IMG/VR virus record: IMGVR_UViG_3300009503_000027 | Coordinates: 16,835 to 80,834 of that record | Strand: one strand, 5' to 3' | From: a virus | DNA: 64,000 nt | Part shown: positions 40,474 through 56,268 of the stretch, one piece after another | Numbering within the stretch: the stretch's first letter is position 1 | How the letters are laid out: the number at the start of each line of letters is the position of its first letter | Translations under genes and position numbers: made by a program | The notes under the pieces: model-generated | What the model saw: only the letters and a program-made list of their open reading frames with translations | The model's database searches: none | What the model was told of the DNA's origin: nothing

Positions 40474-41550
40474 TTAGCGCCGAACATGCACACTATGTTT
40501 GTCTACGCCTAGCCAAATGCTGATAGCCCCCAGGTCTGCAGGGGGCAAGCCCATCTCCGCTGGATAGCCCCTGTGCTTGAGAAAGGATGGTAACAATACC
40601 CTGTGTTGGCCATAGGCTACTACGAGGCCCTGTTCGTTGGGGCCGAAGCGGATGTCGCGCCAAGCCATCTCTTGATGCAAGTGCCCCACCGTCACGATAT
40701 CTGCGTTTGTGGTTGCAGCTATCCGGTCGGCACGGGAGACTTTTGCGCCCCGCGTCTGGGAAGCTCCCGCCCCATGATGGTGGTAATGGGTGTACATCTG
40801 CTTGACCTTGCCATTGATGATTAGCTTATATGTGAGATGGCCCTCGTAGCCCCAGAAAGGCAGGCCGAGCCGGTTGGCAAGCTCCTCCGAAGGATCCAGG
40901 TTTGCTTGTAAGAGGCGTGTGATGCGGCGGTCGTGGTTTCCTGTGAAGATGGCGATACCCTGGCTGGTGATAGGCCGTAGCCGCATGGTTAGTAGGTCTA
41001 GGGCTTCATTGAGTTCGCAGAACTGTTCGCGTAGGAGGCCTGGGCTTCCTGTTGTGGCCAGGTCGAAGTTGTCCCCGCCCAGGAACCATCGTGCTGTTGG
41101 GGTAGCGGCTATCCATTCCACCAGTTCGACGAACCGCTTGTAGTCGCAGTGCTTGCTGCCCAGATGTAGGTCTGAGATGGGAACGAGGCAGACTTCCTTT
41201 GTCCCACGGGGCACTTTCCATTCATATTCCAGGACTCTTTCTTGGGCTTCTGATTGTTCGAGGTACTCCGCATCGAGGTCTTCCACCGTGCGTGCATCCG
41301 AGAAACGCTCGTTGCGCTGGAACATTATGGACTTCCGCCCTGTATGCTTCCCATGGCAGCCTAGCCCCAGCTTCCGGAAACAGTGCTGCATTGTGGAGGG
41401 CGAGAGGCCCACCCATTCGGCGGCAAGTTTAGCATTCCCATGGAAGCGCTGATGGAGAAGCAAGCCGCCTATCTCGTAGCCTCCTAGCATCTGCCATACT
41501 TGCCCCCCAACCCCGCGTAGTGCATCCCAATCTATCTTGTCGGCTTTCAT
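40474..41550 (-). CDS. Calcineurin-like metallophosphoesterase with N-terminal HTH-like domain
   Basis: SDLHLG, GGDNFD, GNHD, HHG and GHLH motifs; GNAKLAAEWVGLSPSTM HTH-like segment. Confidence 0.8.
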   Translation of the reverse strand: MKADKIDWDALRGVGGQVWQMLGGYEIGGLLLHQRFHGNAKLAAEWVGLSPSTMQHCFRKLGLGCHGKHTGRKSIMFQRNERFSDARTVEDLDAEYLEQSEAQERVLEYEWKVPRGTKEVCLVPISDLHLGSKHCDYKRFVELVEWIAATPTARWFLGGDNFDLATTGSPGLLREQFCELNEALDLLTMRLRPITSQGIAIFTGNHDRRITRLLQANLDPSEELANRLGLPFWGYEGHLTYKLIINGKVKQMYTHYHHHGAGASQTRGAKVSRADRIAATTNADIVTVGHLHQEMAWRDIRFGPNEQGLVVAYGQHRVLLPSFLKHRGYPAEMGLPPADLGAISIWLGVDKHSVHVRR

Positions 41551-42497
41551 GGCTCTACCTCGGCGGCAAGATCTTCCTTATTATACCCCGCTTCGCTATC
41601 GGATACACTATCCCATAGGCTGAGCTGGCCAACTTTCTCCTGTGCTGTTTGTGGGTCAATCCATAGGGATTCTATTCGGGGCTGCATGGTTGATCTTGCC
41701 CCGTTGCCCCGGATACCGGTGGCCCTTGTACAAGCTGCTGCTAAGCACGTCCTATTGAAGTCAAGGCGTACCCACCCGGCCTCTTCCAGGGGAGCATAGA
41801 CCTCGTGCTTGTATCCCGACAAGGCAAACTTCCCCGGTAACCCTAGGATAGTGCGAACAAGCTCTGCATGGTCCTCCACCGTCATTTCGTGCATATATAC
41901 ATCGGGCGACCGTCGGACATCGGGGACGTATGGTGGGTCAAGATAACAGAACGAGTGCGGAGAACAGTATTGTTGCAAGACTTCAATGGCGGGACGCGAC
42001 TCTATGTGCGCTCCATGGAGGCGGGAGGCACATGCGGGCAATACCCTAATCGTGCTCAACAGACGTGCACAGGTGCCAGCCATGTGGCGGGAGGTAGTCT
42101 CAACTGCAAGCGACCAGCTGGCCCCCCAGTAGCCCGAAAAGGACTGCTTGGCAACTACCCACCAACGCCACGCCCTACGCACTGGGTCAGTTTCGTTGTT
42201 CCATTCGCGGCGGCACTCCTCATACAGTTCCCGGCTGTGTAAGGTGAAGTATGCTAGATGCATAAACTCATCCGGGTGATCGCGTAGGACACGAAAGAAT
42301 TCCACCAAGGGCTGGTGGATATCATTGATGACCTCGAAGCGGGCTGGTGCTTTAGCAAAAAACAGGGCGGCAGAACCACAGAATGGCTCAATGTATACAT
42401 CATGGGCTGGCATCAATGAAAGCAGTTGTCGCAGGAAGGGCGTTTTGCCGCCATACCAGAAGAATGGCGCTGGTATCCTTGGTCCATTACTGGTCAT
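41547..42497 (-). CDS. DNA adenine methyltransferase (Dam/D12 family), copy 1
   Basis: WYGGK, YIEPFCGSA, INDI and YLDPPY. Confidence 0.9.
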   Translation of the reverse strand: MTSNGPRIPAPFFWYGGKTPFLRQLLSLMPAHDVYIEPFCGSAALFFAKAPARFEVINDIHQPLVEFFRVLRDHPDEFMHLAYFTLHSRELYEECRREWNNETDPVRRAWRWWVVAKQSFSGYWGASWSLAVETTSRHMAGTCARLLSTIRVLPACASRLHGAHIESRPAIEVLQQYCSPHSFCYLDPPYVPDVRRSPDVYMHEMTVEDHAELVRTILGLPGKFALSGYKHEVYAPLEEAGWVRLDFNRTCLAAACTRATGIRGNGARSTMQPRIESLWIDPQTAQEKVGQLSLWDSVSDSEAGYNKEDLAAEVEP

Positions 42498-43378
42498 GCC
42501 TCTTCTCCTATTAATTGCGTCTGTGCCCGGACCAGCTTGGCAGTTTCGGGGTCAAGCCAGACGGACTCAACCCGCGCTTGTTTTTCCAAGACAGTGCCGT
42601 CGCCCAGGAGCCCCGTTCGGCGCGACCGTGCGGCGGCATAGCATCCCGTGGGGAAGTCTATCCGTACCCATCCTGCCTCTTCCAATGGTTTGTATACTTC
42701 GTGGTTATATCCTGATAGCATGAAGCGCCCAGGCAAGGATAAGAGGACCTCAACTAATTCTTTATGCTCTTCTACAGACATTTCGTGGTCATATACGGTA
42801 CTACTGCGGCGTGTGTCAGGAATATATGGCGGGTCGCAGTAGCAGAACGAGTTTGGTGTGCAGTATTGCTGCATGACTTTGATAGCGGGGCCGCACTCTA
42901 TCTGGGTACGTTTGAGACGCTCTACACAATCGGGCAGGTGTTCAACTGCTGAAAGCAGAGCACTACAGGACATCGCCATGCCACGGCGTGATAATGTGAT
43001 GTTAGATCTCCATCCTGCTCCCCAGTTGCCGGAGAAGGACTGGCGCGCCACTACCCACCAGCGCCATGCTTTGCGGACCGGGTCTGTTTCTTCGCGCCAT
43101 TTGGCCCTGCATTCTTCGAATAACTCGCGGCTATGGATTGTCAGCCTGGCGAGTTCTATGAACTCTTGGGGATAATCGCGGAGAACCCGGAAGAACTCCA
43201 TCACGGCATGGTCAATGTCGTTAATGGTTTCAACCAGGGCCGGCTCCTTGGCAAAGAAGAGTGCTCCACTGCCAAAGTACGGTTCAACATACTCCCTGTG
43301 TGGGGGCACTAGGCGTAGTAGCCTTCCTATCATGTTGCCTTTACCTCCGTAGCGGCAAATGGGCGAGTGCAAGTGCAT
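42494..43378 (-). CDS. DNA adenine methyltransferase (Dam/D12 family), copy 2
   Basis: RYGGK, YVEPYFGSGA and YCDPPY. Confidence 0.9.
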   Translation of the reverse strand: MHLHSPICRYGGKGNMIGRLLRLVPPHREYVEPYFGSGALFFAKEPALVETINDIDHAVMEFFRVLRDYPQEFIELARLTIHSRELFEECRAKWREETDPVRKAWRWWVVARQSFSGNWGAGWRSNITLSRRGMAMSCSALLSAVEHLPDCVERLKRTQIECGPAIKVMQQYCTPNSFCYCDPPYIPDTRRSSTVYDHEMSVEEHKELVEVLLSLPGRFMLSGYNHEVYKPLEEAGWVRIDFPTGCYAAARSRRTGLLGDGTVLEKQARVESVWLDPETAKLVRAQTQLIGEEA

Positions 43379-43388
43379 GTTCGGTTGC

Positions 43389-43679
43389 TCACCTTAGGGA
43401 CTCTAGCGTAATGCGTGGCCTAAGATGCAATGCGGCGGCTATCTTGGCGATGGTCATTATGCTACATCGCCTGCCGCGCAGTATTCCACGGATTCCCCTA
43501 GGATTTTCGCCTATCCGGGTGGCAAGATCCTCAATACTCATCTGCCTATCTTGGAGGTGCTTCAGTATTTCTTCTGCCAATGACAGGACTAGGCATTCAG
43601 CTATGTATTCCGGATCGTGCTGTAATTCCCGGATATGCTCTTCTACTGTCCGCACAGTACGCCCCCCTAGAAGCGGCAT
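43389..43679 (-). CDS. XRE-type HTH protein
   Basis: MSIEDLATRIG...SIMTIAKIAAAL. Confidence 0.7.
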   Translation of the reverse strand: MPLLGGRTVRTVEEHIRELQHDPEYIAECLVLSLAEEILKHLQDRQMSIEDLATRIGENPRGIRGILRGRRCSIMTIAKIAAALHLRPRITLESLR

Positions 43680-43681
43680 TC

Positions 43682-44257
43682 TTACTTGAGCCGGATTGTG
43701 CCCTGCCGGCTTCTGTCTGTTATCCAGACATGGATGCTAAAGCCCCGGATACCTAGGTCAGACAGGAGTGCCTGTACATGCATTGCCTCATCGCCACGGT
43801 AAAGATCGAATAGGATATATCCTTCGTGCCCGCAAGAGCCAGTAGTATTTATACCCTCATTGCGGAGAGCGTAAACCACCGGCCGGATGCATTCGTCTAT
43901 TGCCTGGTAGAAGGACGTTTCGGGCGGCGTGGGCAATGGTCTACTTCCCGCAACTACCTCAATCCCACATGCACGGAGCTTTTGTACCATCTGTTGTTGG
44001 CGCACGGCTTCTCTTACATCCTGCAGGTATGCTTTGGTCGCCGGGGCAGAGTCCAGCCAGTCTGCCCCTTCCCAGGTTACCCAACTTGCAAAGTGGCATA
44101 GGAAATGTTCAGCCGGCCAAGCCTCCTCGAGGGTGCGCGCCTGGCGAAGAGCAAAGTCGGCAAAACTTTGTGCTATCTGGTGGCAAGCTCCTTGCCTCAC
44201 GGCGAAGCTGTAAAGCTCGCTTCTCAATACGTCCCATGTTGTTGATGGGCCAACCAT
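43682..44257 (-). CDS. Hypothetical protein
   Basis: 191 aa with IDECIRPVVYALRNEGINTTGSCGH motif. Confidence 0.55.
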   Translation of the reverse strand: MVGPSTTWDVLRSELYSFAVRQGACHQIAQSFADFALRQARTLEEAWPAEHFLCHFASWVTWEGADWLDSAPATKAYLQDVREAVRQQQMVQKLRACGIEVVAGSRPLPTPPETSFYQAIDECIRPVVYALRNEGINTTGSCGHEGYILFDLYRGDEAMHVQALLSDLGIRGFSIHVWITDRSRQGTIRLK

Positions 44258-44314
44258 TACTGTTGTGCTTTTCCCCTGTGCCTCTTGGTCATTAGGGCGC
44301 CCCTCATGCTGTTA

Positions 44315-44391
44315 GGTGGAGGCGGCGGGAGTTGAACCCGCGTCCGGTGGCAAGCTCAATCCGCTTGCACATCGTCGAGCCCATCGCCCCC
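44315..44391 (-). ncRNA. Mini-tmRNA: tRNA-like domain only (ssrA-like, Ala identity)
   Basis: GGGGGCG/CGCCTCC acceptor stem with G3-U70, discriminator A plus CC, stemless D-loop ending TCGAC, GGAC before a perfect T-arm GCGGG-TTCAACT-CCCGC; helix 2 closed by a 7-nt loop; no tag ORF. Confidence 0.8.
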
Positions 44392-44784
44392 AACGAATGG
44401 TACATCTTCTATCTGCCTGTAGATGATTTTACCATGTTGCTGGGCATGTGCCAACTCCATGTCTGCTCCCTTTGAGGGAGCAAGATACAAAAGTGCATCC
44501 ACCATCTCAACTATCCGGAGGTCCATCCGCATGAAGTCTTCCCACTTAAGTTTATACCCAGAGAGAAGTGGCATCCAGCAAGTCATGCTATGAGGGACTA
44601 TGACTGCCCAGCCTTTCTGCATCAGCTGTACACCCGCGCGGACTGCCCTATATATGTTCCAGACCTGTTTGATGAAAGACAGGGGCCAGGGCCACCCGCG
44701 GCCCATGTATGGCCCTGCAATGTAAATGATTGGCAGTTTTCCCTGTTCTTGAGCGCACCCTAGCGGGGGGCGGCAGAATCTCAT
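44356..44784 (-). CDS. DUF1937/DUF4406-like (nucleoside deoxyribosyltransferase-like fold) protein
   Basis: IYIAGPY, VPHSM, WEDFMRMDL and SKGADMELAHA; RBS AGGAGGT before ATG 44784. Confidence 0.7.
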   Translation of the reverse strand: MRFCRPPLGCAQEQGKLPIIYIAGPYMGRGWPWPLSFIKQVWNIYRAVRAGVQLMQKGWAVIVPHSMTCWMPLLSGYKLKWEDFMRMDLRIVEMVDALLYLAPSKGADMELAHAQQHGKIIYRQIEDVPFVGGDGLDDVQAD

Positions 44785-44798
44785 TCGTACTTTACCTC

Positions 44799-45716
44799 CT
44801 ACAGTTCTGAGTGGCCGAACAACTTGCCACTTTGTATTCCTAGCTCTTTGGCTGTTCTGGGGTCGAGCCACACCGACTCGATGCGTGGCTGCATAGCCGT
44901 AGCGGCGCCCTTGCCTAGTATGCCGGTGCCGACTGTCCGGCCAGCCGCATGGCAGGCTGTCCGGAAGTCCACGCGTGCCCAGCCCGCCTCTTCTAGGCGG
45001 GCATACAGCGGATTGGCATACCCGGATAGTAAGACCTTCCCCTTGACCTCCCCTGACAGGAGGAAGTCAATAAGACGTACGTGGTCCTCCTCCGACATCT
45101 CATATGTGTACACTTTGGGTTGAATTCGCGTACTCGGCAGATATGGCGGGTCTAGATAGTGCAAGCAATCTGGCGTATCTGTCCGCATAACAGCCCTCTG
45201 CCAATCCGTGCAAGAAATCTGAACACCTTGTAAGCGCGCAACTACTTGCGGAAGGCTCTCTACGCAAGACAAGAGGCTGGCCACTCCTTTGGGCATTGCG
45301 CCAGCAGTTTGTGTGCGCGTATGTCCCCACGCTGCTCCCCAATTGGCCGCGAAGCTCATCCTTGCGACTACCCACCAGCGCCACGCCTTGCGGACAGGGT
45401 CTGTTTCTTCGCGCCATCTGGCCCGGCACTCGCGCCAGAGTGCTTCACTATACTCTGTGAGGGCGGCAAGTTGAATGAATTCCTCTCCGTGGTCGCGAAG
45501 CACGCGGAAAAACGTGGTCACGGCCTCATCTATGTCATTGATGGTTTCGTGGGGCGCCGGGGCCTTGGCGAAGAACAAGGAGCCGCCGCCAAAGAACGGT
45601 TCGCAGTATTGCTGATGAGAAGGCACCAGCCGTAGAAGTCTTCCCACCATGTTGCCCTTACCTCCACGGCGCTGGATGGGCGAGCGGAGCCGACGTTTCC
45701 TTTTGTCGGGTGCCAT
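44799..45716 (-). CDS. DNA adenine methyltransferase (Dam/D12 family), copy 3
   Basis: RRGGK, YCEPFFGGGS and YLDPPY. Confidence 0.9.
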   Translation of the reverse strand: MAPDKRKRRLRSPIQRRGGKGNMVGRLLRLVPSHQQYCEPFFGGGSLFFAKAPAPHETINDIDEAVTTFFRVLRDHGEEFIQLAALTEYSEALWRECRARWREETDPVRKAWRWWVVARMSFAANWGAAWGHTRTQTAGAMPKGVASLLSCVESLPQVVARLQGVQISCTDWQRAVMRTDTPDCLHYLDPPYLPSTRIQPKVYTYEMSEEDHVRLIDFLLSGEVKGKVLLSGYANPLYARLEEAGWARVDFRTACHAAGRTVGTGILGKGAATAMQPRIESVWLDPRTAKELGIQSGKLFGHSEL

Positions 45717-45739
45717 GCTTGCCCTCCTGTTATAGCGGC

Positions 45740-46873
45740 TTACTGCTGCTGGCCTGTCACCCTCATAGGCATCACAATGTATATGTAACCACCTAGGTCA
45801 CTAGGCCGGAGCATGGCCGCCTTGTCGTAGCCATTGAGATGGAACTGCCACGTCTGTGATGGCCCCAGGGCCTCCAACGGCTCCAAGAGGTATTGCCCAT
45901 TGAACGCGAAGGTTCCCGGCCGGCCGTCCAAGGTGGCAGGAACTTCCTCGCGGAACTCACCTATCTCTGTTTCTGCGGTTTGCACACAAATAGCGTTGTC
46001 TGTGACCTCTAAAACGACGCGGTTGACGCTATGCTGAGCGATGGGCAGGGCGCGCCGTAGGGCATTGGCAAAATGATCGCCCTGGAAGGTGACAACATGC
46101 TCAAAGCTTTCTGGTATCACCCGGCTATAATCGGGAAACCGTGCATCGATTAGCAAACTGGTGAGCACACTATTGCCTGTGCTGAACTCCACGGTGGCAT
46201 CACTTACACATACATGGAAACGCGCCTCTTCGTCTTGGTATTCTGTGCACTTCAGTAGCTCGCGGATGCACTTTGTTGGTATTAGCGCGGCGGCATCGCC
46301 TGGGCCCTGTTCATATGTTATGCCCTGTAGTTTCACTTGCGCCAGGCGGTAGGAGTCACTTGCGGTCAATAGTATGCCATCGTCAGCGGCCTGTAGAAAC
46401 ACGCCTCCGAGGGCAGGGCGTGTTGCGTCGCGGCTAACGGCGAATGCCACCGCTTGCAAGCCTTGGCGCAGGGCATCCATAGGAACGGTGAACGTCAAGC
46501 CCTCTGGTGTCTGCAGGCGCTCAAGGGCTTGGGGGTCAATGCCACGAAGTTGGTAGCGTGTCGCTCCGGCGGCAATGGTCAGTCCAGCATCGCTGCCTTC
46601 CAAGACCACTTGGCCAGTCAGCTTCTTGGTGGCCTGGTCTAGCAGTTGTGCCCACACGGCGACGGCCCCCTCTTGCTCTACGGTTGCGGGCACTACCTGC
46701 TGCATCTGTACTTCCCCGTCGAATGCAGATACACGTAGACTGTCTGTCTCGGCTTCAAGTAGTATGCAGTTGCGGGTTGTCATGCCTACACTTAGTATGT
46801 TGGCGCGTGCTGCCGTCCGTGCGCAGCTCGTGACTGCCCTCGATAGTAGCTTGGCGTCTATCGTCAGTCGCAT
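45740..46873 (-). CDS. dnaN: DNA polymerase III beta sliding clamp
   Basis: 377 aa; TRPALGGV, ASDSYRLA, FPDYSRVIP, FNGQYLLE and YIVMPMR. Confidence 0.92.
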   Translation of the reverse strand: MRLTIDAKLLSRAVTSCARTAARANILSVGMTTRNCILLEAETDSLRVSAFDGEVQMQQVVPATVEQEGAVAVWAQLLDQATKKLTGQVVLEGSDAGLTIAAGATRYQLRGIDPQALERLQTPEGLTFTVPMDALRQGLQAVAFAVSRDATRPALGGVFLQAADDGILLTASDSYRLAQVKLQGITYEQGPGDAAALIPTKCIRELLKCTEYQDEEARFHVCVSDATVEFSTGNSVLTSLLIDARFPDYSRVIPESFEHVVTFQGDHFANALRRALPIAQHSVNRVVLEVTDNAICVQTAETEIGEFREEVPATLDGRPGTFAFNGQYLLEPLEALGPSQTWQFHLNGYDKAAMLRPSDLGGYIYIVMPMRVTGQQQ

Positions 46874-47371: not shown

Positions 47372-48843
47372 ACTATCTCACCTCCCATGCGCTTATACTC
47401 GCTGAAGCGAGCATGGGAATGCTCATGTAGAAAAGGCGGCAGGTCTTCGAAGTCATGAATGTAGACAGTATTGTCACCCTCCTTTGGCCGTAAGCCACGC
47501 CCCACCCTCTGGACGGTGTTGATGTTGCTTTTGCCCCCGGCGGCAATTATCACACTCGCAAACGTAGGTACGTCCATACCTTCTCCAAGAACGGGCGAGC
47601 CTACTACGATCAATGCTTCTCCGGCACGTACACGGTCAAGGATCTCCTGAATGTTCTTGCTGCGCATCTTGGCGGTTACCAGGACCGCATTCGCGCCCAG
47701 TTGCTCTAATGCCTCCATGATCAATTCGCCATGTTCGATGTATTGGACAAGCACTAAGCATGGCCGCCCCGCTTGTTGTTCCTGTACTGCCAGGCGGGCA
47801 ATCAACGCATTCCGCCGGTCATTATACAAAATATTTTCTCTGTATGCAAACTGGAATGCTTCCACTTCGGTCTCGGCGCGCTTGGGGGGAAGCCAGGGGA
47901 CGCGTGGCCGGGGTGCCTTGTGGATATAAAAGATAGGCCGTGCTATTTGCCCCTCGGATACAAGGGAGGCCACCGGGAGCTTATATAGCACCGGCCCTGT
48001 AGCTGCTTCGAGGTAAAGGTCGCGGCCATCGGGCCGTGTCAGGGTAGCCGACTGTAGGTAGCGATAGTAGGCCGGGCAGGACATGGTGATGCCGTACCAG
48101 CTTAGGGCTGCATCATGGTGGGCTTCATCTACGCCGATGAAGTCAATGGATTGCATCAGCTCTTGATACTGCGGCGTGTCGGCGTAGCGCCACAGTTGGG
48201 CAGCGGTGGCAATTGTCAACTCCCTTATCTCCCAACTACCCTCGCCTATATAGCCCACTTCTATACCGAAGAACTTAGCCGCTGCTTGCCTGAACTGCCG
48301 CAGGATAACACGCGTGGGGACGAGTATTAGTCCTCGTGTATTGGTCTCATACCATCGTGCTAGCATGAGGAGGGTCTTGCCGCCACTGGGGGGCACTTCC
48401 CATTGGCCCCGTGGCGCACTCCGGGCCGCCTGGAGGACTTCCAGCTGGTGTGCGCGCCAGCTAATGGCGGGTAGCTGTCGTGGCTGGGCAACAGGTGGCC
48501 GACGGCGGTCATCAATGTGGATACTGAAGCCATTTTGCTGGAGGATGCCTATTACATGAGGGAGCAGTCCTGAAGGCCAACGGTTGCCATCGTTGAGGTG
48601 CTCGATACCGAAGCGGCCCGACTGTAGGGCCTGGCACATACGACACCAATGTTCCGGCTTGGGATGTTTCCGCTTATGTGCCCGGGCACGATATTTAGCC
48701 GTTGGGTCATGCACGATACATACACTGGCGGCTAGGGCGGCAGCACTTTCATTGTCACACCATGCCCAGTTGTTGGTGATTGTGATGGTAGTCTCCCGCT
48801 CCCTCGGGAGTTGCATGTTGCCTAGTCCCATAATTGTTTCCAT
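47350..48843 (-). CDS. Superfamily 2 DNA helicase (UvsW/RadD-like)
   Basis: PPSGGKT, DEAHH, SAT, GEGMDVP and QRVGRGLR. Confidence 0.9.
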   Translation of the reverse strand: METIMGLGNMQLPRERETTITITNNWAWCDNESAAALAASVCIVHDPTAKYRARAHKRKHPKPEHWCRMCQALQSGRFGIEHLNDGNRWPSGLLPHVIGILQQNGFSIHIDDRRRPPVAQPRQLPAISWRAHQLEVLQAARSAPRGQWEVPPSGGKTLLMLARWYETNTRGLILVPTRVILRQFRQAAAKFFGIEVGYIGEGSWEIRELTIATAAQLWRYADTPQYQELMQSIDFIGVDEAHHDAALSWYGITMSCPAYYRYLQSATLTRPDGRDLYLEAATGPVLYKLPVASLVSEGQIARPIFYIHKAPRPRVPWLPPKRAETEVEAFQFAYRENILYNDRRNALIARLAVQEQQAGRPCLVLVQYIEHGELIMEALEQLGANAVLVTAKMRSKNIQEILDRVRAGEALIVVGSPVLGEGMDVPTFASVIIAAGGKSNINTVQRVGRGLRPKEGDNTVYIHDFEDLPPFLHEHSHARFSEYKRMGGEIVWKTTGS

Positions 48844-49493
48844 AGAATGCTCCTTAGCTGCAAGGCTATTATACCCGCTCTGCCAATATTCAAACATCGG
48901 ATATGTTTGATGGGATAGTTCTGCCCCCAGAGTTGCATGCAGCGCCTGGCAACAACATCAAAGGGTTCCAGGCGGCTAGCCTCCCTACAGTAGTGAGGAC
49001 GGTAGTACTCATCGGCGGTGGCAATATCTTCTGGTGTCCGGCCAAATGCGATGGCCAACTTGAACACGGACTTGCACCGGGGCCAGTACTTGCGCCAGGC
49101 GGCAATCTCTGCCTCAGTGATGGGATGGTGGCCCCGCCAGGGCAGGCGGGCCCGTGATGATACAAACGGGCACTTCGGCGGGGCGCTTCCATCGAGAATG
49201 CACGTTAAGACACGCAGCCGATATGCTGGCGGCACGAGAATATACTCCGCCTCTGCTAGGCCTAGCAGCCAGGCCTTGTAAAGTCCTTCATGGCTGATAT
49301 GGGGCGGCAGGCTAGCAGGATCGAACCCCAAGATACGCTTCAGGAACCACCGGGGCCAGCGGTGCCGCCGGGCCCAATCAGCTAGAAGGATTTGTATTGG
49401 TGTCGTTGTTGCCAAGAATGTTGACATTGATCCGGAAGGCTGGGTTATTCTTTGCCGCCTCGACAATGCGGGCATAAACCCGCGTTGTATCAA
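48822..49493 (-). CDS. Hypothetical protein
   Basis: Fills the gap between integrase and helicase; start uncertain. Confidence 0.45.
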   Translation of the reverse strand: MIQRGFMPALSRRQRITQPSGSMSTFLATTTPIQILLADWARRHRWPRWFLKRILGFDPASLPPHISHEGLYKAWLLGLAEAEYILVPPAYRLRVLTCILDGSAPPKCPFVSSRARLPWRGHHPITEAEIAAWRKYWPRCKSVFKLAIAFGRTPEDIATADEYYRPHYCREASRLEPFDVVARRCMQLWGQNYPIKHIRCLNIGRAGIIALQLRSILWKQLWD

Positions 49494-50364
49494 GACTCTT
49501 ATGCCCTAGCATGTCCTGGACTTCTTCCAGGCGCGCTCCCCCGCTAAGAGCCAGGGTGGCCACCGTATGGCGCAAGCCGTGGGGCGTGATATCGGTTAGC
49601 CCGGCACGATCTAGATACCGCCGGAGCAGGTAATTGATAGACCGTCGCGCCATACGTCCTCCTGGCGGGCGGCCGGGCGGCAAGGCAATAAACAATGCCT
49701 CTTCCCGGTCAGTCCTGAACGAGAGATACCGTTGGATTGTTGCCATCACATCAGGACGCAAGAAGATCACACGGGGCCCCCGTTTACCCTGGAGGATGGC
49801 TATCGGGGAATCTCCACGATACTGAATATCTTGTTTGTTCAGGCGATGCAGTTCAATCTGGCGCACGCCATGGATGGCGGCTAGTGCCAAGATGGCCCGG
49901 TCACGCCAAGCCGTGATGTCGTTGCCCTTCACGGCGGCAAGGAGTGCTTGTAACCCCTGCTCCGTCGTGTAGCGTATCTTTTCCTCGCGGCCACGTATAG
50001 TGACACGTACGCCGGCTGCCGGGTTATCCCGCCGGATGCCGCGCCACACTGCAGCTGTGTACAGCCGCCGGACAGCCGACAGGTAACCAGCCACTGTCGA
50101 GTCTGCCATGCCGGCTTCCCGCATGGCCTGCCGGTACCGCCGGATGTCATCGGGCGTGGCCGCTGCGGCATCAATACCGTTCTGGGCACACCACGTCAAG
50201 AAATATGCAGCTGCCCGCCTATACATGCGCTTTGTATCGTCGGATGGTGCGCCTTCTGCCACGTCATACTGGAAGAACTCTTCCAGGGTTGCTAGCCAGT
50301 CGAAGGGCATGGGCGTCGGGGCAAGTTCTGCCTCTTCTTTCACAGGCACAATATCCACGCTCAT
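49378..50364 (-). CDS. Tyrosine recombinase / integrase (XerC/D-like)
   Basis: SAM-like N-domain; RDRAIL, GVR, GK, HGLRH and LGH...TRVY catalytic residues; RBS GGAGG before ATG 50364. Confidence 0.9.
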   Translation of the reverse strand: MSVDIVPVKEEAELAPTPMPFDWLATLEEFFQYDVAEGAPSDDTKRMYRRAAAYFLTWCAQNGIDAAAATPDDIRRYRQAMREAGMADSTVAGYLSAVRRLYTAAVWRGIRRDNPAAGVRVTIRGREEKIRYTTEQGLQALLAAVKGNDITAWRDRAILALAAIHGVRQIELHRLNKQDIQYRGDSPIAILQGKRGPRVIFLRPDVMATIQRYLSFRTDREEALFIALPPGRPPGGRMARRSINYLLRRYLDRAGLTDITPHGLRHTVATLALSGGARLEEVQDMLGHKSLDTTRVYARIVEAAKNNPAFRINVNILGNNDTNTNPSS

Positions 50365-50431
50365 CTTTGGGCCTCCTGCGTTTGCGATATTATTATCCTT
50401 CTCCCCCATGGGAAGTGCGGCTCCTTCTTGG

Positions 50432-51868
50432 TCAGCTTGCAAGTTCTGCATAGCGGTTCACCCACATTGCTGCTTCTTCGATATGCTCCGTGAGGATTTC
50501 CTCGCTACCCGCCAGGTCAGCGATTGTGCGGGCAACAAATACACATTGGTGCACGGATCTGCCCGTCCACTGGTCGCCTATCTCGACCAGCCTGTCCTCA
50601 GCGGCAGATGATAACCTCACTCTCCCCGTCATAATGTCCTCGGGCGTGAGGAACGCATTGCGCTTGCCCCGCTCTCTCTGTGCCCTAATAGCCCGTATCA
50701 CGCGCTGACGCACAGTTGCCGAGGGCTCCGCTTCCGATGATTTGAGTAGCTCCCGCGTATCGGTTGGGCCGACATAGGCTGTAATGTGTATACGGTCCAT
50801 GATGGGGCCGCTCAAGCGGCGGCTGTAGCGCCGCTTCTCGGCAGGTGTACAGACACACCCACCGGGGCGCGGGCCGCAGGGGCACATATTCGCGGTGGCA
50901 AGTAGCTGGAACCGCGCCGGGAAGGTTTTCGACCAGTTAGCCCTGTTTATCACCGCAATGCCTTCCTGCATGGCCGTCCTTAGACTTTCCTTGGCGGAGG
51001 CAGGCCAGTACGGGAACTCATCAGCTACCAAGAGGCCCCGGTGGGCAAGCGATACCAGTCCCGGATAGGGCACTTCATATCCTCCGCCGGCGATACTTTG
51101 TCTTGTCGGCGAGGGGGAAGCGAACACCACGGGCCGTTCTGTCAGTCCTTGGCCGGGCCGCAGGGCCCCACTCAGTACCCAGATTTGTGTCACTTCTTTC
51201 TTTTCGTTCTCTGTGAGGGGCGGTGTGATGGTAGGGAAAGCCTTGGCAAGCAGGGTCTTACCTGTGCCGGGCGGGCCGATAAACATCAGGTGATGTCCCC
51301 CGGCGGCGGCAATCTCCAAAGCACGCTTCGCCTCTCTCTGCCCCGCAATGTATCTGAGATCCACCAGCTCAAATGGTAAGCGTTGCGGGGCCTGTGCTGG
51401 TTCCACCGGTGTTGCTCTCCTGGGATCGTCCAGTATCTGCTCAAGTTCATGCCGCGTCCGGGCGGCATAGGCACGGATGCCTAAAGTTGCGGCCAATGCC
51501 GCTACTTCAGGCGTGCTGACGAGGGCTACCCCTGCGGGCCAGTCTTTCAGGTAGACCATCGGGTCCGGCGGGCCATATAAATTACCTGCGGGATCGGCTT
51601 TGGCCAATGCTAAGATTTCAGGCGGGGGCACTCGTCTCATCATGACATCATATGGTTGGAACTTGTGCTCACAATAGTACCTTAGCCCAAGCTCATAGTA
51701 ATCATTAGTGACCCTCCTGCCATCAAGGTCGAGGATATGTGGCCAATATACAATGCCGCCGATGCTATAGACGCAAGAAGCAGACAATGGCCCCCTGGGC
51801 GACGGCAATCCGCTAATAGCAACTTCCCAAAGCTGTTCTCTCATTGCTTCCTCTACAGTCACTTGCAT
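50432..51868 (-). CDS. YifB/ComM-like Mg-chelatase-family AAA+ ATPase with an atypical N-terminus
   Basis: GQREAKRALEIAAAGGHH, GPPGTGKT, PGLVSLAHRG, FPARFQL, NMCPCG, LSGPIMDRI and VARTIADL. Confidence 0.85.
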   Translation of the reverse strand: MQVTVEEAMREQLWEVAISGLPSPRGPLSASCVYSIGGIVYWPHILDLDGRRVTNDYYELGLRYYCEHKFQPYDVMMRRVPPPEILALAKADPAGNLYGPPDPMVYLKDWPAGVALVSTPEVAALAATLGIRAYAARTRHELEQILDDPRRATPVEPAQAPQRLPFELVDLRYIAGQREAKRALEIAAAGGHHLMFIGPPGTGKTLLAKAFPTITPPLTENEKKEVTQIWVLSGALRPGQGLTERPVVFASPSPTRQSIAGGGYEVPYPGLVSLAHRGLLVADEFPYWPASAKESLRTAMQEGIAVINRANWSKTFPARFQLLATANMCPCGPRPGGCVCTPAEKRRYSRRLSGPIMDRIHITAYVGPTDTRELLKSSEAEPSATVRQRVIRAIRAQRERGKRNAFLTPEDIMTGRVRLSSAAEDRLVEIGDQWTGRSVHQCVFVARTIADLAGSEEILTEHIEEAAMWVNRYAELAS

Positions 51869-54181: not shown

Positions 54182-55189
54182 ATGGTGCCGTGGCGATACT
54201 ATGCGCTCACCCCAGGCAGGCTTATCCTGCTCGTCAGCGATCCTCACGATCTCCAGGGCGACGATGAAGAAGTCATCCAGGGTAGCATGGACGCCCTGCA
54301 GATCTCGCATAGCGGCCCGATCGTGGCCGCACGGGTCGCCAACGCACTGCTCGTTGGCGACCCGTTTGCTTTGCGGGGGGGGCTGGAACTGCCCCCAGGC
54401 GGCACCGCCTGGGCGGCAGTTGAGCCCGGGCAGTGGATACCACTCTGCTGGCAGTGCCCGCAGTACATGGGTGCCTGTGACGGCACTGCCAGCGACAGAG
54501 ATGTGATTGACTGCTGGCGAGCGGCCGGACTAACCCGGCCGCATTCCTCGGACCCGGAGCTACGGGTCCGGAACCTGCCGGGCAGGCGCGCCCGGTGGGA
54601 GGATCTGGCGGTGTGGCAGGGCACAGTCGTGATACAGCAGGGCGACAAAGGGCAGGCTGTACGTGATGCGGTCCTGCCCCTCAAGGCGATATGCGAGCTC
54701 GTCGGCGATGACCGACGGCTCGCTTCCATTTTTCTAGGGGACTACTGCCCCCTCGATGAGCTCCATGTGCTCCGGGGTGGGCAGTGGGTTCCGTACTGGG
54801 TCCCGCGCGTACCGCATGAGTGGCGGGACCCGACCGGGCGGGACTGTCCCACCGTGAGGGCCTGGCAGTACATCGTTAGTCATTGGGCCCGAGCGGTAGA
54901 ACCAAACTTCGGCCCCACGACAAGGGCCGAAGTGTTTGCGGTAGCGGAGATGGTAGCTGCAGGACAGTCCCACTGGCGGGGATGTGGGCGCGGTCTGTGC
55001 TGGCTGAGTGCCCTGCTGGACGCGGGCTCAGTCCGCGGCAGGGCACTCAGCCAGTTTATTTTATCGCTCTGGGTGGACGAGTTCGCTCAGGAGGTAGCTG
55101 CCGCCCTGGGCGTCCCGGTTGAAGACGTGGTCGAGATTCACCGGGGCGTCTGGGGCGAGCTGATGAGTATACTTAAGGAGGGCGAATGA
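54182..55189 (+). CDS. Hypothetical protein
   Basis: RBS GAGGAGG; first gene of the + strand block. Confidence 0.6.
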   Translation: MVPWRYYALTPGRLILLVSDPHDLQGDDEEVIQGSMDALQISHSGPIVAARVANALLVGDPFALRGGLELPPGGTAWAAVEPGQWIPLCWQCPQYMGACDGTASDRDVIDCWRAAGLTRPHSSDPELRVRNLPGRRARWEDLAVWQGTVVIQQGDKGQAVRDAVLPLKAICELVGDDRRLASIFLGDYCPLDELHVLRGGQWVPYWVPRVPHEWRDPTGRDCPTVRAWQYIVSHWARAVEPNFGPTTRAEVFAVAEMVAAGQSHWRGCGRGLCWLSALLDAGSVRGRALSQFILSLWVDEFAQEVAAALGVPVEDVVEIHRGVWGELMSILKEGE

Positions 55190-56268
55190 TGGTCACGCTG
55201 ACAACCGACCAGTACAGGAGTCTGCTAACGCATTTTTTAGGAGCTGAGTCTGTCGACGATCAGCTCCTTGGCCTGCTGGTTATTGGGCCAGCAGGGGTGG
55301 GCAAGACCAGTATCTCCAGGGATGTGGCGCGCGAGTTGGGATGGGATGTGAGAGAGGTCTACTTGGGCAATATGGCGGATCCCGGCGACGTCCGGGGTCT
55401 GCCAGTGGCGGGGGAGGGGAGGACGGACTGGTTGGTGTCGGCGGAGTTTGTGCCGCCGGCGCGGCCTACTGTCCTCCTCCTGGATGAGATAACTCGTGCT
55501 CCGGTCTATCTCCACTCTATCATTGTTACGCTGATCACCTCGTGCTCAGTGGGGCCGGGCCATAAACTGGACCCGGCCCTGGTCAAGGTGATCGCGACGG
55601 GGAACCCGAGTACGGAAGAGTACTCGGGCTGTTACGAGTTGGACCTGGCCGTCAGGTCCAGGTTCTACCAAGTTGGCCTGGTGGCGGACTGGACCGCGTG
55701 GTTCAAGTGGGTCCAGTCCAGGACCCAGGAGCCATTCCGGCTCCACGTGGCCGGCGCCGTGGCCACGGCGCCGGAGCTGCAGAATGCCGCCAGTCCGCGG
55801 GACTGGTGGCACGTCGTCCGGCTGGCGACGCCAGATCGCGAGCTGCTCCAGTGGATTGTCGAATCGAAGGTCCCGGGCGCGGCGGCTCCACTGCAGGAGC
55901 TGCTGCAATCAGGCGACCAGTTGCCGCCTGTCGAGCAGCTGGCGGGCGATCCTGAGGCCGCAGTCAGGATAATAGAGGGGTTGCCCGTCCTGCTCCAGGG
56001 CTGGGCAGTAAAGCGGGCGGCTACTGTGATGAGTAGCCTGCCCGTCGAAAAAGCGGCTGCTCTGGTCGCTGCCCTGTTGACCTCGGGCATTAGGCCCGAG
56101 CTCAAGGCGCAGGCCCTGCGGCTTGCGCCGCAGGCCGCACTGGCGGCCGCCGCAAAGCAGAACAAGGGGCTGGTCCAGGAGGTCCAGAAGGCTCACCTGG
56201 ACCAGATGGCTGAGGTTCGAGAGTTCATCGCGGAGAGGGTGAACGAACGTGACCAGAGCCGAGGCTGA
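55186..56268 (+). CDS. MoxR-like AAA+ ATPase
   Basis: GPAGVGKT, DVRGLP, LLLDEITRA, IATGNP and LDLAVRSRF. Confidence 0.85.
   Translation: MMVTLTTDQYRSLLTHFLGAESVDDQLLGLLVIGPAGVGKTSISRDVARELGWDVREVYLGNMADPGDVRGLPVAGEGRTDWLVSAEFVPPARPTVLLLDEITRAPVYLHSIIVTLITSCSVGPGHKLDPALVKVIATGNPSTEEYSGCYELDLAVRSRFYQVGLVADWTAWFKWVQSRTQEPFRLHVAGAVATAPELQNAASPRDWWHVVRLATPDRELLQWIVESKVPGAAAPLQELLQSGDQLPPVEQLAGDPEAAVRIIEGLPVLLQGWAVKRAATVMSSLPVEKAAALVAALLTSGIRPELKAQALRLAPQAALAAAAKQNKGLVQEVQKAHLDQMAEVREFIAERVNERDQSRG

What the first reader, a model, noticed from the sequence alone, without database searches (positions are those of the whole stretch)
44315..44391. Phage-encoded mini-tmRNA consisting only of the tRNA-like domain
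Seen: the minus strand reads GGGGGCG ATGGGCTCGAC GATGTGCAAGC GGATTGA GCTTGCCACC GGAC GCGGG TTCAACT CCCGC CGCCTCC A CC (77 nt). It has a 7-bp acceptor stem with G3-U70, a stemless D-loop ending TCGAC, the GGAC linker and a perfect T-arm. A short hairpin replaces the pseudoknots and tag ORF. Established: these are tmRNA TLD hallmarks (AlaRS identity, SmpB binding region). TLD-only ssrA relatives are rare; from memory, mycobacteriophage DS6A and some mitochondria have them. Inference: it could titrate SmpB or AlaRS and block host trans-translation, or release stalled ribosomes without adding a degradation tag.
Basis: partly seen in the sequence, partly recalled or inferred. Interest (0 to 1): 0.9.

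Follow-up and report, generated by a model that had tools for sequence, protein, structure and literature searches.

The report
Phage tag-less mini-tmRNA gene
A hot-spring phage carries a 77-base gene for the alanine-accepting, tRNA-like end of the bacterial ribosome-rescue RNA (tmRNA) without its tag-coding part; this kind is already known from mycobacteriophage DS6A and probably interferes with the host's rescue and tagging system.

Summary
At 44391..44314 (minus strand) Rfam's tmRNA model matches end to end (59 bits, cut-off 47, E 1.6e-20), with its 314-position core replaced by 20 bases. All tRNA-like-domain (TLD) features are present. There are no pseudoknots and no tag frame.

The kind is already known. 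DS6A's 'TLD only' tmRNA is in print (PMC4131195, PMC11915505), and this scan found the class before on other DNA. Here, one strict pattern found 40 IMG/VR contigs, all 40 with a 7/7 acceptor stem. Covariation is strong: 98.8% of cells paired against 75.4% shuffled, 0 of 500 shuffles as high. A model built from 10 members without the window scores the window 56.6 bits and DS6A 62.3.

The phage record shows no SmpB, RF-1 or tRNA gene.

The local peculiarity is that the upstream DUF4406 gene reads 36 bases into the RNA and stops in its apical loop. A relative seems to keep this.

The likely function is competition with host tmRNA for SmpB. This is inferred from the literature. Expression, charging and binding are untested.

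Verdict: new member of a known kind, moderate interest.

The parts
44314..44391 (-). Mini-tmRNA gene (tRNA-like domain only). The mature RNA probably runs 44391..44317 plus a CCA end, of which CC (44316-44315) is encoded.
   Evidence: Rfam RF00023 59 bits, E 1.6e-20, end to end. Class model R1, built without the window, gives 56.6 bits, E 3.6e-10 for 44391..44317.
44385..44391 (-). Acceptor stem, 5' strand GGGGGCG. It pairs 7 of 7 with 44318-44324, including G3-U70.
44374..44384 (-). Stemless D-loop analogue ATGGGCTCGAC, 2 nt shorter than the Rfam consensus.
   Evidence: Alignment.
44346..44373 (-). P2-like helix: GATG/CACC with one mismatch, a bulged T, then a 6-bp hairpin GCAAGC/GCTTGC with the 7-nt loop GGATTGA. 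It stands in place of pseudoknots and tag frame.
44342..44345 (-). GGAC linker before the T-arm.
   Evidence: Invariant in 35 of 35 aligned sequences, but fixed by the search pattern.
44325..44341 (-). T-arm: GCGGG, loop TTCAACT, CCCGC.
44315..44324 (-). Acceptor stem 3' strand CGCCTCC, discriminator A (44317), then CC. The next base (44314) is T, so the terminal A is not encoded.
44356..44784 (-). Upstream DUF4406 / nucleoside 2-deoxyribosyltransferase-like CDS. The start is probably the ATG at 44784, which is where the 82%-identical relative starts. Its last 12 codons, counting the TGA (44358-44356), lie inside the RNA gene, and the stop sits in the apical loop.
   Evidence: Pfam PF14359 and phrog_355. 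Translation. Alignment with P0005.
44426..44454 (-). Sigma-70-like promoter match TTGGCA-17-TAAAAT with TG. It ends 35 nt upstream of the RNA 5' end, inside the DUF4406 CDS.
   Evidence: 10 of 12 matches. Only 2 sites were found in the 1.7-kb region against 1.1 expected, so this is a lead and not evidence.
43682..44257 (-). Downstream 191-aa ORF of no known family, starting 56 nt after the RNA. It probably shares a transcript with the RNA.
   Evidence: No Pfam, PHROG, NCBIfam, PDB or Atlas match. The only two homologues found are 99% and 78% identical.

Best explanation
This is a genuine phage gene for a tag-less mini-tmRNA of about 75-78 nt. It has the acceptor stem, D-loop analogue, T-arm and a short P2-like hairpin of tmRNA, and nothing else. 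It lies in the minus-strand replication and DNA-modification gene block and is probably cut out of a longer transcript like a tRNA, by RNase P at 44391 with 3' trimming and completion of CCA. Host AlaRS should charge it (G3-U70, A73), and host SmpB should bind its D-loop/T-loop elbow, since the phage record shows no SmpB gene. With no resume codon and no tag frame it cannot carry out trans-translation. The most likely effect is competition with host tmRNA for SmpB, and perhaps for EF-Tu and stalled ribosomes, which would lower or abolish SsrA tagging during infection. Shown here: the sequence features, membership of the phage TLD-only class, covariation across that class, and the lack of any SmpB match in the record. 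Inferred: expression, processing, alanylation, SmpB binding and the effect on the host.
For: Identity: RF00023 gives 59 bits against a cut-off of 47, end to end, with 314 model positions replaced by 20 nt. It is the only such hit in the 80.8-kb virus record. Class: one pattern (GGGG, TCGAC, GGACG plus T-arm) found 40 IMG/VR contigs. In all 40, the 3' acceptor strand, which was not part of the pattern, pairs 7 of 7 with G3-U70 and is followed by A. The same pattern in bacterial genomes gave 85 stretches, of which only 14 pair 7 of 7; many of the rest look like 3' ends of full-length tmRNA genes. Covariation on 35 distinct sequences: 98.8% of cells paired against 75.4% shuffled (0 of 500 shuffles as high); score 0.592 against 0.122; slid controls 0.045-0.118; 9 of 17 pairs show changes on both sides, and all 5 P2 pairs covary. 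Leave-out test: model R1 from 10 other members scores the window 56.6 bits (class range 54-89). Ordinary tRNAs score at most 27 bits and permuted phage tmRNAs 30-36 bits. DS6A's published TLD-only RNA scores 62.3 bits. Dependence on the host: SmpB (PF01668) 0 of 1, RF-1 0 of 1 and no tRNA gene in the record. In the five largest class-member records (four at least 92% complete, two with terminal repeats), SmpB is 0 of 5, and the mini is the only above-threshold tmRNA hit in 5 of 5. [quoted passage not shown] PMC11915505 makes the same point. The crystallised SmpB-binding TLD construct is 25 nt of the 5' end and 34 nt of the 3' end joined by a tetraloop, which is the same anatomy (PMC3985003). 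Lineage conservation (inferred): an 82%-identical homologue of the upstream protein ends ...GGDRFDDVQAN where ours ends ...GGDGLDDVQAD. Its frame therefore also appears to run through an RNA 5' half to a stop at the same position. The three differing residues fall on the D-loop (two) and the apical loop (one), none on a stem.
Against: There is no expression evidence. No RNA run holding the stretch was listed, so processing and abundance are unknown. The host is unknown. The D-loop is 2 nt shorter than consensus, reads GGGCUCGAC rather than the usual GGnUUCGAC, and the P2 base has an A-C mismatch and a bulge, so SmpB affinity could be reduced. The folding-energy z-score is only -1.42. The window's element has the third-lowest R1 score among 41. 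It lacks the CCGCAYGCGG hairpin seen in DS6A and pSt2308 (alignments) and in several contigs (my reading, not counted by a tool). The experiment behind 'inhibits tmRNA' (Mao et al. 2009) was not readable here and was done in E. coli, with DS6A's form according to PMC11915505 and with 'a similar molecule' according to PMC4131195. The DNA of the relative could not be fetched, so lineage-level conservation rests on a peptide tail.
Confidence: 0.6

Rival explanations
1. Productive tag-less rescue. The Ala-charged mini-tmRNA with host SmpB and EF-Tu enters stalled ribosomes and accepts the nascent chain. The chain is then released without a degradation tag, by drop-off with peptidyl-tRNA hydrolase or by a release-factor-like protein. 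Ribosomes are freed and phage proteins made from broken mRNAs are spared.
For: G3-U70 and A73 are kept in 41 of 41 class members, which a pure SmpB sponge would not strictly need. [quoted passage not shown] CDS-less mitochondrial tmRNAs co-occur with imported SmpB and are thought to help with incomplete mRNAs (PMC11915505, passage).
Against: No release mechanism is encoded here: RF-1/ArfB-like domain 0 of 1 in the record. According to PMC4131195, inhibition of tmRNA occurred whether or not the molecule could be charged.
Confidence: 0.2
2. Processing signal or regulatory punctuation. The tRNA-like fold mainly serves as an RNase P site inside the operon. Cleavage at 44391 would remove the stop codon of the upstream DUF4406 mRNA, producing a nonstop message and separating upstream from downstream cistrons. 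Any effect on SmpB would be secondary.
For: The CDS runs 36 nt into the RNA and its TGA lies in the apical loop. This overlap appears to be kept in an 82%-identical relative. [quoted passage not shown] No terminator-like site was found in 43500-45200.
Against: Only 8 of 43 examined loci have a same-strand ORF of at least 60 aa whose stop ends inside the RNA. In 4 of these the overlap is a single base, and the window's is the deepest. The overlap is therefore not a class feature. A plain tRNA would serve as a processing signal, whereas the tmRNA-specific D-loop and GGAC are conserved. DUF4406 homologues without an RNA end a few residues after the DVP motif (P0007; L129 has no tmRNA-like hit), so the overlap may just reflect tight packing.
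Confidence: 0.1
3. Integration site or captured fragment. The element is attP, or a leftover of imprecise excision, from a phage that integrates into the host ssrA 3' end. It is not an expressed RNA gene.
For: The phage has a tyrosine integrase (49378-50451). tmRNA genes are common integration sites (PMC11915505 abstract, listing). The 31 nt from GGAC to CC are identical to the tmRNA 3' end of some bacteria (8 of 151 and 2 of 151 genomes in two phyla).
Against: The element also carries the 5' acceptor strand and the D-loop, and the acceptor stem is complete at 7 of 7; to my knowledge an att site keeps only the 3' part of the gene. It lies about 5 kb from the integrase. The stretch around the integrase's 3' end (48700-49500) shows no tRNA-like match at E up to 10. 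Class members occur in complete genomes with terminal repeats and next to tRNA genes. Covariation shows selection on the RNA fold. A double role cannot be excluded.
Confidence: 0.05
4. ARAGORN's reading: a circularly permuted two-piece tmRNA spanning 44408..44018 with tag peptide AHPRGGLAG.
For: It is ARAGORN's only call in the window and in the whole record.
Against: ARAGORN itself prints 'Tag not identified'. Its '5' tRNA domain' is a weak stretch downstream of the true 3' end, and it ignores the contiguous, perfectly pairing 5' half. The tag lies at 44138-44109, inside the 191-aa CDS and in another frame. Rfam's permuted model RF04321 gives no hit at gathering in the window, yet it does find the permuted genes of two other phages. 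ARAGORN reported none of the 40 other minis as tmRNA.
Confidence: 0.02

Closest known systems
'TLD only' (standard form, no CDS) tmRNA of Mycobacterium phage DS6A (tmRNA Website tmID 11587; Mao et al. 2009, RNA Biol 6:355, not read; Hudson, Lau and Williams 2014, PMC4131195; PMC11915505)
   Same: Both are phage-borne, about 75-80 nt, in standard (unpermuted) order, with a 7-bp acceptor stem bearing G3-U70, a stemless D-loop ending TCGAC, a short P2 helix capped by a hairpin and a T-arm. Neither has pseudoknots or a tag frame. Both match one model built from other phages (62.3 and 56.6 bits). In both phages a DNA polymerase III gene lies nearby: a beta-clamp gene two genes upstream in the window, and gp34, annotated 'DNA polymerase III', directly downstream in DS6A. 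This may be coincidence.
   Different: DS6A has GGCAC instead of GGAC, a GCGAG/CUCGC T-stem and a CCGCACGCGG apical hairpin after an A-rich internal loop. The window has a shorter D-loop and a plain 6-bp hairpin with a 7-nt loop. It overlaps the preceding CDS by 36 nt, and it comes from a hot-spring phage of unknown host.
Bacterial tmRNA (SsrA; Rfam RF00023)
   Same: The tRNA-like domain is the same in every conserved element. The acceptor stem and T-arm are identical to those of one Acidobacteriota MAG tmRNA.
   Different: About 290 nt are missing: the pseudoknots, the resume codon and the tag reading frame. It cannot template a tag or provide a stop codon.
CDS-less organellar tmRNAs (jakobid and oomycete mitochondria, Rfam RF02544; two Mallomonadaceae plastid genes of about 65 bp; PMC11915505)
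   Same: A tRNA-like domain without a tag frame, working with an SmpB encoded elsewhere.
   Different: The mitochondrial genes are usually permuted and belong to the cell's own organelle system. This one is in standard order and viral, so it acts on a host that should have its own full tmRNA. That situation is seen in one Mycobacterium MAG holding both forms.
Engineered TLD fragments used for SmpB co-crystals (for example PDB 2CZJ: 25 nt of the 5' end and 34 nt of the 3' end joined by UUCG; PMC3985003 figure legend)
   Same: The same design: both ends of tmRNA joined by a short hairpin. Such constructs bind the SmpB globular domain.
   Different: They are synthetic. The natural element has a longer, imperfect P2 and a different loop.

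Membership tests
tmRNA tRNA-like domain (Rfam RF00023 ends) | 7-bp acceptor stem with G3-U70 and discriminator A73 (AlaRS identity) | tested here: met
   GGGGGCG / CGCCTCC pairs 7 of 7 with G-U at pair 3, and A follows.
tmRNA tRNA-like domain (Rfam RF00023 ends) | Stemless D-loop analogue with GG...UCGAC, and a GGAC linker before the T-arm | tested here: met
   AUGGGCUCGAC and GGAC align to the model. The D-loop is 2 nt shorter than consensus.
tmRNA tRNA-like domain (Rfam RF00023 ends) | 5-bp T-stem with a 7-nt GUUCRANUC-type loop | tested here: met
   GCGGG UUCAACU CCCGC.
tmRNA tRNA-like domain (Rfam RF00023 ends) | Score above Rfam's curated gathering threshold | tested here: met
   59 bits against 47.
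Full-length tmRNA (functional SsrA) | mRNA-like domain: resume codon, tag reading frame with stop, pseudoknots | tested here: not met
   Only 28 nt lie between TCGAC and GGAC. Rfam shows 314 model positions replaced by 20 nt. ARAGORN's tag is 'not identified' and lies out of frame inside a CDS.
Full-length tmRNA (functional SsrA) | Alanylation by AlaRS and binding by SmpB | not testable with these tools
   No RNA-protein tool is available. The record has no SmpB gene and the host is unknown.
Phage TLD-only ('standard, no CDS') tmRNA class, type DS6A | Matches a covariance model built from other members, in the class's score range and well above tRNAs | tested here: met
   R1 (10 members, window left out): window 56.6 bits, class 54-89, DS6A 62.3, tRNAs at most 27, permuted tmRNA pieces 30-36.
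Phage TLD-only ('standard, no CDS') tmRNA class, type DS6A | Stems supported by compensatory changes across members | tested here: met
   9 of 17 pairs have both-side changes; covariation score 0.592 against 0.122 shuffled (0 of 500 as high) and at most 0.118 slid. Caveat: the alignment was fitted to the model, and 8 invariant pairs say nothing; of these, the 5' side of four acceptor pairs and both sides of four T-stem pairs were fixed by the search pattern.
Phage TLD-only ('standard, no CDS') tmRNA class, type DS6A | Carried by a virus genome that lacks its own SmpB and full-length tmRNA | tested here: met
   The own record is an IMG/VR virus, 86% complete, with SmpB 0 of 1 and one tmRNA hit. 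In five other class records SmpB is 0 of 5 and only the mini is found in 5 of 5. An incomplete record cannot prove absence.
Phage TLD-only ('standard, no CDS') tmRNA class, type DS6A | DS6A-subtype apical motif (A-rich internal loop plus CCGCAYGCGG hairpin) | tested here: not met
   The window has GCAAGC-GGAUUGA-GCUUGC instead. This marks a subtype and does not define the class.
Phage TLD-only ('standard, no CDS') tmRNA class, type DS6A | Inhibits host trans-translation when expressed | not tested
   Known only from citing passages about Mao et al. 2009; the paper is not held.
Canonical tRNA (RF00005) | D-arm and anticodon arm with U33 and an anticodon | tested here: not met
   ARAGORN calls no tRNA in the record. 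The best clan match is tmRNA. The 7-nt loop GGAUUGA has G at the U33 position.
Permuted two-piece tmRNA (RF04321) | 3' acceptor piece upstream of a 5' acceptor/coding piece with a tag frame | tested here: not met
   No RF04321 hit at gathering in the window, while the model finds Tunturi_4 and QDWS595. The order here is the standard one.
ssrA-type attP or att remnant | Only the 3' part of the gene, next to the integrase | tested here: not met
   The 5' half is present and pairs fully. The element is about 5 kb from the integrase, and no tRNA-like fragment lies around the integrase's 3' end. A double role is not excluded.

The most novel reading that the evidence does not exclude
The CDS-RNA overlap may be a conserved two-part device. 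Under this reading, RNase P maturation of the mini-tmRNA removes the stop codon of the upstream DUF4406 message, so the phage deliberately makes a nonstop mRNA. The mini-tmRNA released in the same cut then takes over host SmpB, so that this product, and other products of broken phage messages, receive at most one alanine instead of a degradation tag. Production of the RNA and the fate of its neighbour's protein would thus be coupled to the state of host trans-translation.
Probability: 0.1. Interest if true: 0.75.

Novelty: new member of a known kind. Interest (0 to 1): 0.4.

Why it matters
Trans-translation is the main ribosome-rescue path of bacteria. A natural 77-nt RNA that probably captures SmpB is a ready-made probe and inhibitor of that path. 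It also offers a view of how phages handle the flood of broken mRNAs during infection.

This window adds a hot-spring lineage with an unusually short D-loop and a CDS that ends inside the RNA.

The session also shows that the class is larger than the counts I read in print. The 2025 tmRNA database lists 9 'standard, no CDS' sequences of 97,179. Here there are 34 distinct sequences in IMG/VR from one strict pattern, plus the unannotated copies in DS6A's and pSt2308's GenBank records. ARAGORN misses the class entirely (0 of 40), whereas Rfam's model finds it (17 of 17 tested).

None of this changes the kind, which was described in 2009-2014.

Tried and rejected
Close relatives by DNA: an exact two-block pattern of the window's RNA found nothing in viral contigs. 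Megablast of 43000-46000 against isolate phages found nothing. Blastn of the RNA plus flanks gave 214 records, but none covers 80% of the query or more. The rows I inspected matched only the 3' half; they are tmRNA, tRNA or att-like 3' ends. The two best unannotated hits, Tunturiibacter phage Tunturi_4 and Alcaligenes phage QDWS595, turned out to be full permuted tmRNAs and not minis.

Relatives by protein: the search for related loci with the DUF4406 protein found none in viral contigs. In metagenome contigs it found one distant locus (34% identity, L129), which has no tmRNA-like RNA. The RNA's conservation in that lineage therefore rests on a peptide tail.

Expression: no RNA holder was listed. 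The two listed runs are DNA contigs of hot-spring metagenomes, one of them possibly the source. Laying them showed no differences in the flanks, and many other contigs piling onto 44314-44347, which I read as other tmRNA genes of the community. This says nothing about expression.

Host: the 31-nt 3' block is exact in 8 of 151 genomes of one phylum (Acidobacteriota, judged by the title of the centre's record; one of the 8 is the genome flagged unpublished, G027, so the count is 7 of 150 without it). It is exact in 2 of 151 genomes of another phylum (Chloroflexia by title). This is too unspecific to name a host.

Conserved neighbours: all-against-all blastp of ORFs within 3 kb of 43 minis gave no family shared by more than 5 loci. 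The one 5-locus upstream ORF has no Pfam match.

The downstream 191-aa ORF has no hit in Pfam, PHROGs, NCBIfam, PDB sequences or the ESM Atlas.

Rejected readings: ARAGORN's permuted tmRNA with a tag, an att remnant, and a plain tRNA (see rivals and membership test).

Literature: searches found phage TLD-only tmRNA mentioned only for DS6A. I found no paper in the held library that describes a large phage family. The library lacks most subscription journals, and supplements are closed. The supplementary tables of PMC11915505, which list its 79 phage and 9 CDS-less sequences, may already hold relatives.
Full report
WHAT IS THERE. In order it has a 7-nt 5' acceptor strand, the D-loop analogue ATGGGCTCGAC and a short imperfect helix (GATG/CACC with one A-C mismatch and a bulged T). 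A 6-bp hairpin with the 7-nt loop GGATTGA follows, then GGAC, a 5-bp T-stem with loop TTCAACT, the 3' acceptor strand, A and CC. The acceptor stem pairs 7 of 7 with G-U at the third pair. Rfam's tmRNA model RF00023 matches 44391..44314 from its first to its last position at 59 bits (gathering 47, E 1.6e-20), with 314 internal positions replaced by 20 nt. This is the only Rfam match at gathering in the window. It is also the only RF00023 match in the whole record, an IMG/VR virus contig of 80,834 bp that is linear and estimated 86% complete. RNAfold's best structure shows the same three helices, but the energy is not unusual (z -1.42). The case therefore rests on the covariance models and on comparison with other sequences.

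CONTEXT. The gene lies in a long minus-strand block of replication and DNA-modification genes. These include a tyrosine integrase (49378-50451), a helicase, a DNA polymerase III beta clamp (45740-46873) and a Dam-type methyltransferase (44799-45716). Next comes a DUF4406 / nucleoside 2-deoxyribosyltransferase-like gene, then the RNA and a 191-aa ORF of no known family. An HTH protein, two more Dam-type methyltransferases and a metallophosphoesterase follow. The plus-strand left part holds virion genes and a primase-helicase lies further on, so the window is phage throughout. The record has no tRNA gene, no SmpB match and no RF-1/ArfB-like match. Public runs that hold the stretch are hot-spring metagenomes.

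THE OVERLAP. The DUF4406 ORF does not stop before the RNA. It reads GGG GGC GAT ... through the 5' acceptor strand, the D-loop and the 5' side of the hairpin, and ends at the TGA in the apical loop (44358-44356). This is a 36-nt overlap. The Pfam domain is complete about 20 residues earlier. A distant homologue without an RNA ends a few residues after the shared DVP motif (P0007), so the tail looks like a consequence of the RNA gene abutting the CDS.

An 82%-identical homologue from a short ENA contig (P0005) starts at the position of our Met-30, which moves the likely start to 44784. It ends ...GGDRFDDVQAN where ours ends ...GGDGLDDVQAD. The tail has the same length, and its three differing residues fall on codons in the D-loop (two) and the apical loop (one). 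This suggests that the relative keeps both the RNA and the overlap.

A sigma-70-like match with an extended -10 ends 35 nt upstream of the RNA. The scan found 2 sites in the region where 1.1 are expected, so it is a lead only. No terminator-like site follows.

IS IT ONE OF A KIND? No. A pattern holding only GGGG, TCGAC, GGACG and the T-arm, with 12-42 nt between TCGAC and GGACG, matched 40 IMG/VR contigs. In all 40, the seven bases after the pattern pair 7 of 7 with the 5' strand, with G-U at pair 3, and are followed by A. ACCA is encoded in 22 of 41, counting the window.

The same pattern in 185,579 species genomes gave 85 stretches, but only 14 have a 7 of 7 stem. Many of the rest look like 3' ends of ordinary tmRNA genes in which GGGG and TCGAC occur by chance. 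The form is therefore enriched in viral contigs. By my reading of those sequences, a few bacterial assemblies hold true minis. One Mycobacterium MAG has both a full-length tmRNA (141 bits) and a mini (66 bits).

ARAGORN reported none of the 40 as tmRNA and called one a tRNA-Arg. In the window it produced only a spurious permuted call, discussed below. Rfam's RF00023 found all 17 of the 17 loci I gave it, out of the 40 held, at 56-79.5 bits. In 14 of the 40 loci the fetched stretch also holds tRNA genes, and in 6 of those a tRNA gene lies within 100 nt of the mini.

COVARIATION AND MEMBERSHIP. I built a covariance model (R1) from 10 members with equal D-loop length, leaving the window out. It scores the 40 contigs at 54-89 bits and the window at 56.6 bits (E 3.6e-10). 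Ordinary tRNAs in the same loci score at most 27 bits, and the permuted phage tmRNAs 30-36 bits.

On the model-fitted alignment of 35 distinct sequences, 98.8% of cells pair against 75.4% after shuffling (0 of 500 shuffles as high). The covariation score is 0.592 against 0.122 shuffled and 0.045-0.118 with slid partners. Nine of 17 pairs change on both sides, including all five P2 pairs, acceptor pairs 5-7 and T-stem pair 2.

There are caveats. The alignment leans towards the model. Eight pairs never vary. Of these, the search pattern fixed the 5' side of four acceptor pairs and both sides of four T-stem pairs. An independent count on unaligned sequences gave a mean run of 5.0 consecutive outer P2 pairs, against 0.91 when partners were swapped between sequences (maximum 1.83 in 500 trials). 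The window is atypical there, with only one clean outer pair before its mismatch.

THE KNOWN RELATIVE. PMC4131195 (passages) lists 'Mycobacterium phage DS6A (TLD only)'. [quoted passage not shown] PMC11915505 (passages) counts 9 'Standard, no CDS' among 97,179 unique sequences and 79 phage sequences. It repeats that the DS6A form inhibits endogenous tmRNA in E. coli.

I fetched DS6A. R1 finds its RNA at 28478-28557 (62.3 bits), unannotated, between gp33 and gp34, which is annotated 'DNA polymerase III'. Streptomyces phage pSt2308 has an unannotated copy in its tRNA cluster (72.6 bits). The window's RNA is thus the same kind. It lacks the A-rich loop and the CCGCAYGCGG hairpin of the DS6A subtype, and it has the shortest D-loop of the set. 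This scan had already reported the class on other DNA several times.

HOW IT MOST LIKELY WORKS. By established knowledge of tmRNA (review passages), the TLD is what RNase P, AlaRS, EF-Tu and SmpB recognise. G3-U70 is the alanine identity element. A construct made of 25 nt of the 5' end and 34 nt of the 3' end joined by a tetraloop co-crystallises with SmpB. The window's RNA has that anatomy.

With no resume codon it cannot template a tag. The phage record shows no SmpB gene. Five large class-member records, four of them at least 92% complete, have no SmpB either and carry the mini as their only tmRNA-like gene. I therefore favour competition with host tmRNA for host SmpB, which would reduce tagging (0.6).

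The main rival is productive tag-less rescue (0.2). It fits the universal retention of G3-U70 and A73, the in-vitro peptidyl transfer to a TLD-only RNA cited in PMC3895274, and the CDS-less organellar tmRNAs. No release activity is encoded here, however.

A processing or punctuation role tied to the CDS overlap is possible (0.1). The overlap is not a class feature: 8 of 43 loci have a same-strand ORF of at least 60 aa whose stop ends inside the RNA, 4 of them by a single base, and the window's overlap is the deepest.

An att-site reading is unlikely (0.05). The full 5' half is present. The integrase is about 5 kb away, with no tRNA-like fragment beside it. Class members sit in terminally redundant complete genomes.

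ARAGORN's permuted tmRNA (0.02) uses a weak downstream '5' domain' and a tag that lies out of frame inside the next CDS. The program itself marks the tag 'not identified'.

WHAT IS NOT SHOWN. Expression, processing, charging, SmpB binding and any effect on the host are untested. No RNA run was listed (see Tried and rejected). The host could not be named: the 3' 31-mer is exact in 8 of 151 and 2 of 151 genomes of two phyla. Mao et al. 2009 was not readable, and supplements were closed.

VERDICT. This is a new member of a known kind. The local points of interest are the conserved-looking CDS overlap with the stop codon in the apical loop, the very short D-loop, and the hot-spring origin. Interest 0.4.

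Noticed in passing
L130 (JN698994) 28478-28557: DS6A's published TLD-only tmRNA is not annotated in its GenBank record. It lies between gp33 and gp34, which is annotated 'DNA polymerase III'. R1 scores it 62.3 bits.
   Followed up: yes
L131 2991-3068 (PV588686 33356-33433): Streptomyces phage pSt2308, an isolate, carries an unannotated mini-tmRNA of the DS6A subtype inside its tRNA cluster, near a thioredoxin gene and an RNA ligase gene. R1 scores it 72.6 bits.
   Followed up: partly
L002 (PP885687, Tunturiibacter phage Tunturi_4) 3622-4383: An unannotated permuted two-piece tmRNA (RF04321, 79 bits) starts 5 nt after the end of gp53, a 115-aa 'RF-1 domain peptide chain release factor' (ArfB-like). 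That is two ribosome-rescue functions side by side in one phage.
   Followed up: partly
L003 (OK149171, Alcaligenes phage QDWS595) 3934-4281: An unannotated permuted tmRNA (RF04321 111 bits; beta_tmRNA 93.8 bits; tag ANDNVYAAAA by ARAGORN) lies within a tRNA cluster. One neighbour is called by ARAGORN as a suppressor-like tRNA with anticodon TTA.
   Followed up: no
G003 (Mycobacterium sp. MAG): C175:10385-10752 and C5:43035-43115: One assembly holds both a full-length tmRNA (141 bits) and a mini-tmRNA (66 bits). The mini is presumably on a prophage or a co-binned phage contig.
   Followed up: no
L132 (KU245542, Pseudomonas phage SM1) 2862-3033: Two adjacent unannotated tRNA-like elements (R1 33 and 32.7 bits). 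Both have alanine-type acceptor ends (3' strand ...CUCCA), but neither has the tmRNA D-loop, and the first aligns with a mismatched acceptor pair. The same place is hit in the related phages PaMx31, FBPa45, UF_RH6 and PA_L9.
   Followed up: no
window 41547-43378 and 44799-45716: Three paralogous D12-class (Dam-like) N6-adenine methyltransferase genes lie within 4.2 kb, two in tandem and one upstream of the DUF4406 gene.
   Followed up: no
window 43682-44257: A 191-aa Cys/His-rich ORF right after the RNA has no family, PDB or Atlas match. Only two homologues (99% and 78% identical) were found among 5.8 billion proteins.
   Followed up: partly
window 44018-44408: ARAGORN turns a TLD-only gene into a false 'permuted tmRNA' with an invented tag (AHPRGGLAG). 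It missed all 40 other minis. Annotation pipelines that rely on it will miss or mislabel this class.
   Followed up: yes
G078:C19:103488-103649: Two exact copies of the tmRNA 3' 31-mer lie 131 nt apart in one genome of the phylum sampled. This looks like an att duplication left by an element integrated in ssrA.
   Followed up: no
window 50432-51868 and 55186-57724: A ComM/YifB-like Mg-chelatase-type ATPase gene overlaps the integrase start. Further right there is an AAA (MoxR-like) ATPase gene followed by a VWA/DUF2201 metallopeptidase-like gene, in a part of higher G+C (0.63-0.64).
   Followed up: no
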